A DNA stretch of 64,000 nucleotides from Candidatus Woesearchaeota archaeon (lineage in GTDB: Archaea; Nanobdellota; Nanobdellia; Woesearchaeales; JACPJR01). A program made the position numbers. Of this stretch, positions 32,414-35,400 are shown in pieces (the stretch's first letter is position 1; each line of letters starts with the position of its first letter). The DNA lies in the NCBI GenBank assembly GCA_016187565.1, contig JACPJR010000035.1, forward strand, positions 1 through 64,000. Reading direction: 5' to 3'.

Positions 32414-35400
32414 GGGCAAAAGCCAGCCTGATTGGATTTCCAAAAGTCCGAAATCCAAACACGAAAGTGTGGCCTAGCGAACTCCTATGCCTCCTTGATG
32501 GGGGTTAGGAATGACAGAAAAGTTACTCCGGGGATAACAGAGTTGTCGCGCCCGAGAGCTCATATCGACGGCGCGGTTTGCTACATCGATGTCGGCTCTT
32601 CCTATCCTGGCTGTGCAGAAGCAGCCAAGGGTGGGGGTGTTCACCCATTAAAAGGGATCGTGAGCTGGGTTCAGAACGTTGTGAGACAGTTTGTTTGATA
32701 TCTACTGGAGATGCATGGTGTCTGCGAGGAAGGATCTTCTAGTACGAGAGGAACGAAGGTTCGGCGCCTCTGGTCGACCGGTTATCTGGCAAGGTAAGCC
32801 GGGCAGCTACGCGCTACGTGATAAAAGCTGAAAGCATCTAAGCTTGAAGCACCCCTCAAAAAGAGACACCGTAGAACTCCCATAAAACATGGGCTTAATG
32901 GAGCTGGTGTGTACAGCGGAAGGTAACGACCGCTTCAGCATGCAGCACCCAACCGTTCATCCTCTTTGTTCGTGTACATAGTCTCTTCTTTTTTTTTATC
33001 TTTCTTTTTTCCTGAAAGTGACCAAAACCTTTTTATAGTTCTCTTCCATGAAGGAGGTAATTGTGTTAGAATCTTTATACAATTATTAATCAAAAATAGA
33101 GTCAAACCTTACGGAGATGATACTATGGATGTAGAGCATGCCATTCACCGACCATTTTCTGATGCAAAAAAACTGGGTATTGGTGTCCTTCTTTCGGTGA
33201 TTCCTCTTGTCAATATCATTACGAGCATCTTTGTTTCAGGATACCTCTTCTATTGTGCACAAACAGCCATGAAAAAGAAAAAGCCACTCCCTGAATGGAA
33301 AGATTGGGGTGATTTAGCTGTTAAGGGTATTCTTGTCTTCTTGATATGGATAATCTACATGCTACCCTTAGTTGTTGTTGCGATTATCCTGCTTGGATCT
33401 ACCCTTCTAAAAATAGGTAGTATGATGGTTTCTCCAGCACAGGAGGCAATGCCCATGGTTGCGCAGGTACTGGGAACAATTGGTTTTGCTCTTGTCTTCC
33501 TTATCCTTCTCTTGCTGCTCACGTTCTATATAATACCTGCTGCTATTCTTCGTTTCGTTGCATACGGAAATTGGAAAAGTGCTTTTGCTATTCCCGAAGT
33601 CTTTAAAGAAGCATTTACCGGAACCTATGCTAGCGCATGGTTCATGGCAGCATTCATCACCCTTGTGTTAGGAGTCATCAATGGGTTGCTCAATTTCGCA
33701 CTGATGATAACCATGGTTTTGCCCTTTGTTGTTACTGCTTTTATCAGTACAGTAAGTGGTATTATCACCATGACCTTATTCGGACAGGCATACGCAGAAA
33801 TAAAAAAACGCTAAGCAAACTTACGATGGATAAAAGGTAATTTTATTCTGGTTGTAGATGCCTTTCTTTAATGGTACTGGTCGCCAGGTATCTTCCACAA
33901 GTTTGGCTTCTAACCAGGTGGCTAATTCTTGAGGATTCCCTATGGTCGCAGATAATCCGATAATCTGTGCCTTGGGAATAAGTTGTTTCAAGAGGGTTAT
34001 TAACAGCTCTAAGGTTGGTCCTCTACTCGGATCATTTAACAGATGGATCTCATCAATAACAATGACCTTAATCTCAGTAATCCAAGGGGTATGATGACGC
34101 AAGAGCGAATCAATTTTTTCTGGAACTGATACAATCAAATCATAGGTGTGGAGATAACCGTCACGCGCATCAAGATCTGCAATGGAAAGTGCAATTCTTA
34201 CTAATGCTTGATATCGTGCCTGAAACTGTTTGTACTTCTCGCTTGCCAGCGCTTTCAAGGGAACTAAATAAAGTACTTTTCCCTTATGCTGGAGTAATGT
34301 CGTCATCATGGCAAGTTCTGCAATAAGCGTCTTTCCACTTGCTGTTGGCGTGCACACCAGAAGGTTTTTTCCATTGAGTAACCCTGCATCAATTGCTTTG
34401 GCCTGTGCAGGTCTCAGCTCTTGAACCTCTTTTTCCAAAATGCAGTATAATGCAGGAGGAAGTACTGTTTGAAGGGTGGTAAATTTCATGTGATTCATGG
34501 CCGAGGAAAACATCGTGTCCATATAAACTTTATTCACTCCCCTGCCTAAATTTAACGACTAACCTTTCTAATTCTTTCAAATCTCTTGGGGAAATATCTC
34601 CATGACCGTGATAATATTGTGCAGCTAATAACGCAAGCCGATAGTTCTCTCCGAGGACAGGAGCCAGCTCAGATTCTCTGTTTTTCATTTCTCTTTCAAA
34701 GTGAGTTTACTCTTTTAACGACATCGACAGGAGGTGCATAGGTAACAATCCCACCAATACCCTCTACTTCAGTGAGATTTCCTCTGAGGGCATATGCCTC
34801 TTGTCCAGATCCTATTTCCTTCCAAAGTGGATTCATGGTTTTCCGTACCAACTCTTTCTGTTTGGTTCAATATGAATAAGCACGTTGGCAATTCTTTCAT
34901 TTGCATGGCGAAGAGTATCTTTAACTCTGTGTGAGATTGCATGGCCTTTTGAGACTGATATCCTCCCATCAACAATCACATGCAGATCAACGTAATAATC
35001 AAAACCAATTTTACGGACAAAACATTTTTCTATAGCAACAACACCCAATACAGATTTTGCGACTCTTCGTACCTCGTGATTTATTTCAGAAGAAGGAGAG
35101 GCGTCCATTAATTCGCCAATCGCTGGCGTCAGAAGTTTCCATGCATTGTAGACAATAATAAATGAAGCCAACAATGCAGCCCAATCATCGGCACTTTCAT
35201 AACCCTTCCCGCCTATCAACGCAACCGAAATTCCCACAAATGCAGCAGCAGAAGTAAGAGCATCACTTCGATGGTGCCATGCATCGGTCTTAACTGCAAT
35301 GCTATTTACGGTATTCCCAACATGCTGAACAAAACGAAATAACGCTTCTTTGGTGATAACAACAACAGCTAATACCAGAAGAGTAAAGGGAGCTGGAGCA

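What a model noticed while it worked through the whole genome (the two positions that open the first line are those of the whole stretch)
33821..34498. Hel308 helicase split into two unlinked genes across Woesearchaeales
Hel308 is encoded as a 225-aa RecA1 domain gene (C33:33821-34498) and a distant 522-aa gene for RecA2, winged helix, ratchet and HLH (C15:961-2529), both intact and mid-contig. It is likely a two-subunit SF2 helicase whose ATP site forms between separate polypeptides, fixed in the whole order. A naturally split Ski2-like motor is undescribed and would serve as a ready split-helicase tool.
Evidence so far: Calls 12, 25: halves match Swiss-Prot Hel308 residues 13-214 and 228-735 without overlap. 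Call 18: 38 of 41 order genomes match the N half, all in open frames of 197-281 aa. Call 23: 42 of 43 order genomes match the C half in frames of 440-595 aa, while G053 of another order has 718 aa. In single-contig genomes the halves lie far apart (G016 1150932 vs 1188805; G025 754107 vs 420620). PMC10946056 has no such split (passages, call 21); searches 19, 20, 24.
(Added by a program. Inside this text positions count along the whole contig: contig position 1 is position 1 of the stretch shown here. "Call 12" and the like, gene names such as g00115 and contig names such as C1 are that model's own, and its searches are not shown. The text may have been shortened before it was handed on; [...] marks where a part breaks off. 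The agent that wrote the report below was given it as the finding of a first reader that could run no searches.)

Follow-up and report, generated by a model that had tools for sequence, protein, structure and literature searches.

The report
Hel308 helicase built from two genes
In this small archaeon and nearly all sampled members of its order, the DNA-repair helicase Hel308 is encoded by two far-apart intact genes whose products likely clip together into one motor, and the larger piece carries an added loop that likely hooks onto the recombination protein RadA.

Summary
Confirmed. Window 33821-34498(-) encodes the front of Hel308 and C15:961-2529 the rest; the genome has no full-length copy. 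In the order, 138 of 151 genomes match the front half, always in frames of 197-350 aa; 141 match the rear half. Other orders mostly carry one fused gene. Both halves keep their catalytic motifs, have their own TATA-like box and diverge together. One correction: the cut lies about 20 residues inside RecA2, so the halves likely join by completing a shared sheet. The rear half has a gained FxxA loop like RadA's own oligomerisation motif (52 of 58 versus 0 of 24 in other orders). A second cut, after motif VI, occurs in three genomes of another order. No complex model could be run; binding is untested. Split genes, including the SF2 helicase Lhr, are known in these archaea; I found no paper on split Hel308. 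This scan found the split, and the loop, before on other genomes.

The parts
33821..34498 (-). Small-subunit gene of split Hel308 (225 aa from ATG 34498; relatives start at the position of ATG 34489, 222 aa). Its partner gene lies outside the window at G000:C15:961-2529(+): 522 aa, rest of RecA2, winged helix with FxxA loop (F266-A269), ratchet, HhH, PIP-like tail (Q513-Y519)
33887..34498 (-). RecA1 domain (residues 1-204): Q motif, Walker A (PTASGKT), Ia, DEIH, SAT
   Evidence: Pfam DEAD E 1e-33; invariant in 48 of 48 aligned rows; Hjm domain 1 = 1-197 (PMC2636818)
33824..33886 (-). First 21 residues of RecA2 (WRPVPL...ITF): linker, first strand and beta-hairpin; likely docking arm for the large subunit
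   Evidence: aligns to Hjm 198-215, i.e. domain 2; R, P, L invariant in 48 of 48, G 47, F 45; strands 198-205 and 208-211 in the fused model, hairpin only in the lone model
34521..34527 (-). TATA-like box (TTTATAT) starting 29 nt before ATG 34498; likely promoter of a leaderless transcript
   Evidence: sequence; positional enrichment across loci

Best explanation
Hel308 is encoded by two unlinked intact genes, and the two proteins likely assemble into one heterodimeric 3'-5' DNA helicase/annealase. SHOWN: the small gene holds RecA1 plus the first strand and hairpin of RecA2; the large gene holds the rest; each has a TATA-like box at about -30; the catalytic motifs of both are conserved; the two diverge in step; the split is derived from a fused ancestor. 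INFERRED: both are transcribed separately as leaderless mRNAs and made as separate chains. The small subunit's C-terminal arm would insert into the RecA2 sheet of the large subunit (strand complementation, about 0.75), and the winged-helix and ratchet domains would close round RecA1 as in single-chain Hel308, so ATP held by Walker A/B on the small chain is hydrolysed with motif VI arginines of the large chain. Because the RecA1-RecA2 linker stays on the small chain, the hinge is kept. The large subunit's gained [DE]F.SA.[ED][LI] loop likely binds the FxxA pocket of RadA (about 0.55) and its tail likely binds PCNA (about 0.65), placing the enzyme at recombination intermediates.
For: Clean, gap-free cut: 80 of 80 named loci end 18-29 residues from the start of WRPV, 59 of 80 at 19-20; rear genes start with their own ATG at the next element. 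Invariant Walker A K, DE.H, SAT, RP.L in 48 of 48 front halves and motif VI Q153, R157, R160 in 31 of 31 rear halves; these residues are useful only facing each other (established SF2 mechanism). TATA-like motif at -42..-22 in 66 of 132 front loci (shuffles mean 18.6, max 29; the 132 include some duplicates) and 25 of 45 rear loci (mean 5.8, max 12). Tree distances of the halves correlate in 37 genomes, Mantel r 0.83 (permutation max 0.55), equal to 0.82 between the same parts of 14 fused proteins. One origin not rejected: AU p 0.92 (front), 0.57 (rear); split rows nest among fused ones. 56 of 69 Hel308-like matches in other orders lie in frames of 671 aa or more. Fused relative models as Hel308, pLDDT 88, TM 0.81-0.84 to 2ZJ8/2P6R/2VA8. 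Loop: median 24 residues with FxxA in 52 of 58 scorable rear halves of the order (FxxG 2, YxxA 1, none 3) against 11-12 residues and 0 of 24 in other orders; RadA of the order reads M[GD]F..G[ED][DE]L in 18 of 18 parsed (30 loci), own RadA MGFESGDELL.
Against: No binding, activity or expression data. Correlated divergence also follows from shared ancestry and genome-wide rates, so it does not show contact. Alignments A1 and A2 are mostly best hits, which inflates conservation. 15 of 151 genomes show one half only; G106 (rear only) and G096 (front only) are 100% complete yet stayed so with a profile, though each is in about 20 contigs. Free trees do not recover the split group as one clade (2-3 changes), and one fused protein (P0160) fell inside it but outside. 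Strand pairing was not read from coordinates. One of 81 scorable fused proteins (P0226), outside the split clade, has an FxxA-like loop too; the order's RadA has FxxG, not FxxA; a four-residue motif is weak evidence.
Confidence: 0.85

Rival explanations
1. The halves have parted in function: the large protein works alone as an ATP-independent annealase or RadA modulator, and the small protein serves another partner.
For: Genes unlinked with separate promoters; 15 of 151 genomes show one half only; a review cites unpublished data that a Hel308/HELQ domain 4-5 polypeptide is a hyperactive annealase (PMC13623763); the large half gained a new loop.
Against: Motif VI arginines are invariant in a chain with no Walker motifs, and a RecA2 strand and hairpin are conserved on a chain with no RecA2; 132 of 151 genomes hold both; no other RecA1-less helicase half was found in G000.
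Confidence: 0.09
2. The pieces are rejoined into one chain by RNA trans-splicing or by a split intein.
For: Trans-spliced tRNAs and a split DNA polymerase exist in Nanoarchaeum (PMC3655853); cis inteins occur inside several rear halves.
Against: No intein sequence at either end of the cut; ends vary by about 10 residues; rear genes have their own ATG and TATA-like box; cognate end-start duplex was the best in its row in 1 of 29 genomes, mean z about -0.35.
Confidence: 0.03
3. Assembly or binning artefact, or decaying fragments.
For: Most genomes are fragmented metagenome assemblies; some short frames in other orders are contig ends or frameshifts.
Against: Same cut in 138 genomes of about 130 families, four of them single contigs; the 120 best of 4305 database proteins of 123-394 aa are 219-274 aa long; no fused relative above 60% identity among the best 120 longer proteins; motifs invariant.
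Confidence: 0.01

Closest known systems
Archaeal Hel308/Hjm (P. furiosus 2ZJ2/2ZJ8, A. fulgidus 2P6R, S. solfataricus 2VA8; NCBIfam PRK02362, PRK00254, NF040935)
   Same: All five domains present across the two genes, all helicase motifs, C-terminal PIP-like motif as in PfuHjm (PMC2636818, passages).
   Different: Two chains from unlinked genes, cut inside domain 2; extra ~12-residue FxxA loop in the winged helix.
Split protein genes of Nanoarchaeum equitans and Nst1: Lhr (NEQ003-409, Nst172-239), reverse gyrase, AlaRS, topoisomerase I; split Dph1/2 in Woesearchaeota and others
   Same: Unlinked halves presumed to assemble after translation; includes an SF2 helicase (PMC3655853 Table 1, PMC6349945, passages).
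   Different: Hel308 is not in those lists; here the cut passes through the motor core and is shared by an order with genomes of 0.6-2.7 Mb. Where the Lhr cuts fall was not checked.
RadA/RAD51 FxxA oligomerisation motif and BRC-type mimics
   Same: F-x-S-[AG] followed by acidic and hydrophobic residues; RadA's motif links its two domains and binds the next protomer (PMC4856416, passages). A BRC-like repeat in the helicase RECQL5 is recalled, not checked.
   Different: Here it is an insertion in a Hel308 winged helix; the review PMC13623763 has no 'FxxA' and says clear data for Hel308-RadA binding are lacking.

Membership tests
Hel308/Hjm (Ski2-like SF2) | RecA1 with Q motif, Walker A, DExH, SAT | tested here: met
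Hel308/Hjm (Ski2-like SF2) | RecA2 with motifs IV, IVa, V, VI | tested here: met
   on the second gene
Hel308/Hjm (Ski2-like SF2) | Winged helix, ratchet (domain 4), HhH domain 5 | tested here: met
   PF20470 and PF21280; match to 2ZJ2 228-686; HHH_5 hit in relatives only
Hel308/Hjm (Ski2-like SF2) | Single five-domain polypeptide; whole-protein NCBIfam cut-off | tested here: not met
   two genes; PRK02362 scores 278 and 454, each and summed below the cut-off 887. Orthologue in two pieces, not a canonical member
Hel308/Hjm (Ski2-like SF2) | ssDNA-dependent ATPase, 3'-5' unwinding, annealing | not testable with these tools
   needs purified proteins
DPANN split protein genes | Complementary non-overlapping halves, unlinked, intact, fused in relatives | tested here: met
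DPANN split protein genes | Assembly of the halves in trans | not tested
Split-intein trans-spliced proteins | Intein halves at the facing ends | tested here: not met
FxxA/BRC-type recombinase-binding motif | F-x-x-A in an exposed loop, like the cognate recombinase's own motif | tested here: met
   exposure inferred from the insertion and its variable length (19-81 residues)
FxxA/BRC-type recombinase-binding motif | Binding to the RadA ATPase-domain pocket | not tested
   no model or assay

The most novel reading that the evidence does not exclude
The split makes Hel308 a switchable two-module enzyme: the large subunit, tethered to RadA by its FxxA loop and to PCNA by its tail, acts alone as an ATP-free annealase or filament brake, and the separately transcribed RecA1 subunit plugs in to turn it into a translocating helicase. 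The second cut after motif VI in another order would show that RecA2's edge strands are a repeatedly used self-assembly seam.
Probability: 0.2. Interest if true: 0.8.

Novelty: new variant of a known kind. Interest (0 to 1): 0.6.

Why it matters
Hel308 is a model for helicase mechanism, for the human HELQ and Pol theta helicases, and a motor used in nanopore work. A natural two-chain version allows RecA1 and the rest to be mutated, labelled and titrated separately, which addresses the open question of how the enzyme switches between annealing and translocation. The loop gives a point-mutable handle on the unsettled Hel308-RadA interaction. The cut is also a near-universal marker of a large archaeal order, and explains why databases list the front half only as a 'DEAD/DEAH box helicase'. 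It extends a known habit of these archaea rather than adding new chemistry.

Tried and rejected
Complex prediction of the two halves: tool not available; nothing was folded, so no verdict. Sequencing runs: no RNA holder listed; X5 and X6 gave only short pieces. RNA trans-splicing complementarity: none. Conserved third subunit: none seen; the front gene lies tail-to-tail with ftsY (51 of 80) and prefoldin (43 of 80) on the other strand, and rear-gene neighbours vary. Long rear-half frames as hidden fused forms: rejected; they are inteins (G072, G087, G093 by Pfam; G128, G079 by the same gap in the match), a methyltransferase extension (G056) or stop read-through (G066), and none holds RecA1. 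Short frames in other orders as the same split: of 13, two are the second cut (G241, G266), seven are contig ends, an N-run frameshift or one internal stop (G246, G177, G181, G208, G188, G157, G227), four were judged contig-edge from coordinates only (G222, G193, G243, G171). One origin for the second cut: rejected, AU p 8e-5. RadA motif parsing caught 9, 18 and 3 of 30 loci in three scripts; I use the 18. An AU test on the widest tree did not return. Literature: searches gave no description of split Hel308.

Full report
Observation. The window frame 33821-34498(-) is open for 225 codons and lies between complete unrelated genes. It matches the first 215 residues of P. furiosus Hjm. A 522-aa gene at G000:C15:961-2529(+), mid-contig, matches Hjm 228-686, and the two tile the PRK02362 profile at 4-217 and 223-709. 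A six-frame search of the genome (96.7% complete) finds no other Hel308.

Spread. Of 151 genomes of the order, 138 match the front half, each best match in a frame of 197-350 aa, and 141 match the rear half: both 132, front only 6, rear only 9, neither 4. Two unpublished genomes (G131, G112) are inside these tallies; nothing rests on them. A profile search did not recover the missing half in G106 or G096, nor either half in G006 or the front in G053; all are multi-contig. In the four single-contig genomes the halves are 37-420 kb apart; the closest pair seen is 3.3 kb, divergent (G126). Of 132 genomes of other orders, 70 match, 69 of them Hel308-like, and 56 of these lie in frames of 671 aa or more; 62 gave no match with this query. 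The best 120 longer database proteins reach at most 60% identity and 281 bits, below the 309 bits of the 120th short one.

Where the cut falls. Front halves end at a fixed place: 18-29 residues from the start of WRPV in 80 of 80 named loci. Rear halves start with ATG at the next element, and against fused relatives almost nothing is lost. Hjm domain 2 begins at residue 198 (PMC2636818, passages), which aligns to the W of WRPV, so the small protein carries about 20 residues of RecA2. In a model of a fused relative (pLDDT 88; TM 0.81-0.84 to solved Hel308) this stretch is an 8-residue strand plus a hairpin strand; in the lone front half only the hairpin remains. I infer that the arm completes RecA2's sheet in trans; I had no coordinates to read the pairing, and no complex model could be run. 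I had noted this reading before seeing earlier findings that say the same.

Signs of function. Walker A lysine, DE.H, SAT and RP.L are invariant in 48 front halves; motif VI Q153, R157 and R160 in 31 rear halves. Both sets are mostly best hits. TATA-like boxes peak at -30 to -26 before both genes: 66 of 132 front loci (some duplicates) against 18.6 in shuffles, 25 of 45 rear loci against 5.8; Shine-Dalgarno-like words were found in 4 and 0. Tree distances of the halves in 37 genomes correlate at r 0.83, the same as within 14 fused proteins; this fits joint inheritance but does not show contact. One origin is not rejected (AU p 0.92 and 0.57), though free trees need 2-3 changes. With distant outgroups the split rows nest among fused ones, so the split is derived. 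One fused protein, P0160, was placed inside the split group and outside, so a re-fusion is not excluded. No intein flanks the cut and cognate ends are not complementary (1 of 29 best).

Loop and tail. Earlier findings of this scan pointed to a RadA-like loop, which I tested by sequence. Between the last two winged-helix strands, 58 scorable rear halves of the order have a median 24 residues, with FxxA in 52, FxxG in 2, YxxA in 1 and none in 3; 24 sequences of other orders have 11-12 residues and no motif; 12 frames were not scorable. The consensus [DE]F.SA[DN][ED][LI] resembles the order's RadA linker M[GD]F..G[ED][DE]L (18 of 30 loci parsed; own RadA), the position of the FxxA oligomerisation motif (PMC4856416, passages). 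Against this: RadA here has glycine at the fourth place, and 1 of 81 scorable fused proteins (P0226, outside the clade) has a similar loop. The tail KGQ.S[LI]..[YF] is PIP-like, as in PfuHjm, and occurs in fused relatives too.

A second cut. Three genomes of another order split Hel308 elsewhere: the front ends at GRAGRP followed at once by TAA, and the rear starts with its own ATG a few residues before GEAI. They are G241 (25 kb apart, opposite strands), G285 (single contig, four unrelated genes between) and G266 (two contigs); 3 of the 30 matching genomes. They are not one clade (AU p 8e-5), and G266 is sister to fused congeners, so the cut recurred or was re-fused. It detaches RecA2's last strand (378-384 in the model), which by recalled SF2 topology neighbours the strand detached by the first cut. 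A word search of earlier findings showed nothing on it.

Mechanism. Most likely (0.85) a heterodimer: separately made chains joined by the arm and by the winged-helix and ratchet domains round RecA1, with the ATP site across the interface. Rivals: independent functions (0.09), trans-splicing (0.03), artefact (0.01).

Known work. Split Lhr and reverse gyrase are tabulated for N. equitans and Nst1 (PMC3655853, passages with Table 1); split Dph1/2 in Woesearchaeota is cited in PMC6349945 (passages). No split Hel308 appears in PMC10946056 (passages and one supplement searched), PMC8301817 (passages), PMC8407392 (passages), PMC13623763 (parts 1-2 of 6 and passages) or the 208-genome preprint 10.64898/2026.05.13.725050 (passages; 'helicase' absent; its supplements, like those of other preprints, were not visible and could list it). 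Searches; subscription papers are not covered.

Verdict. Real, order-wide, a new variant of the known DPANN split genes; found before by this scan on other genomes (13 findings). Interest 0.6.

Noticed in passing
G241:C4:30953-32062(-) and 56948-57943(+); G285:C1:291638-292759 and 295202-296230; G266:C64 and C62 (L064, L181, L221-L223): Second Hel308 split, exactly after motif VI (GRAGRP then TAA), in three families of another order; not monophyletic; several fused relatives have an internal Met where these rear genes start.
   Followed up: partly
L084-L088 (G128, G079, G093, G072, G087): Insertions of about 470-510 aa in the rear half, at motif V in four genomes and just before motif VI in G087; Pfam calls them LAGLIDADG inteins in the three scanned.
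   Followed up: partly
L083:1990-4275 (G056): Rear half runs on in frame into a Methyltransf_30 domain (762 aa); real fusion or lost stop unknown.
   Followed up: no
L101-L180: Front-half gene is tail-to-tail with ftsY (51 of 80) and prefoldin (43 of 80), often with enolase-like and phosphoglycerate-mutase-like genes upstream (labels from sequence, recalled); G000 itself lacks this setting.
   Followed up: partly
L068-L076: Fused Hel308 of the sister families sits behind a small conserved gene with no Pfam hit (9 loci) and converges on a GCD14/Trm61-like methyltransferase (7 loci).
   Followed up: no
P0226: A fused 735-aa Hel308 of unknown origin, outside the split clade, has a 29-residue loop with FVPA at the same site; possible convergent gain.
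   Followed up: partly
L231-L260: RadA of this order has FxxG, not FxxA, in its linker motif in 18 of 18 parsed.
   Followed up: partly
families f151 (0 of 17), f139 (0 of 4); single-contig genomes G160, G176, G190, G200: Hel308 front half not found with this query in whole families of other orders; possible loss.
   Followed up: no
window 27974-29444, 29743-32972, 41742-41907: 16S and 23S rRNA genes, and an Rfam RT-16 RNA match (E 3e-8) on the minus strand.
   Followed up: no
G000:C34:63012-64958: A second, single-chain 649-aa Ski2-like helicase at about 30% identity; relatives of 641-676 aa occur in other genomes of the order.
   Followed up: no
L040, L048, L050 (G130, G076, G078): The rear-half gene starts shortly after what looks like a tRNA 3' end (read by eye).
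   Followed up: no
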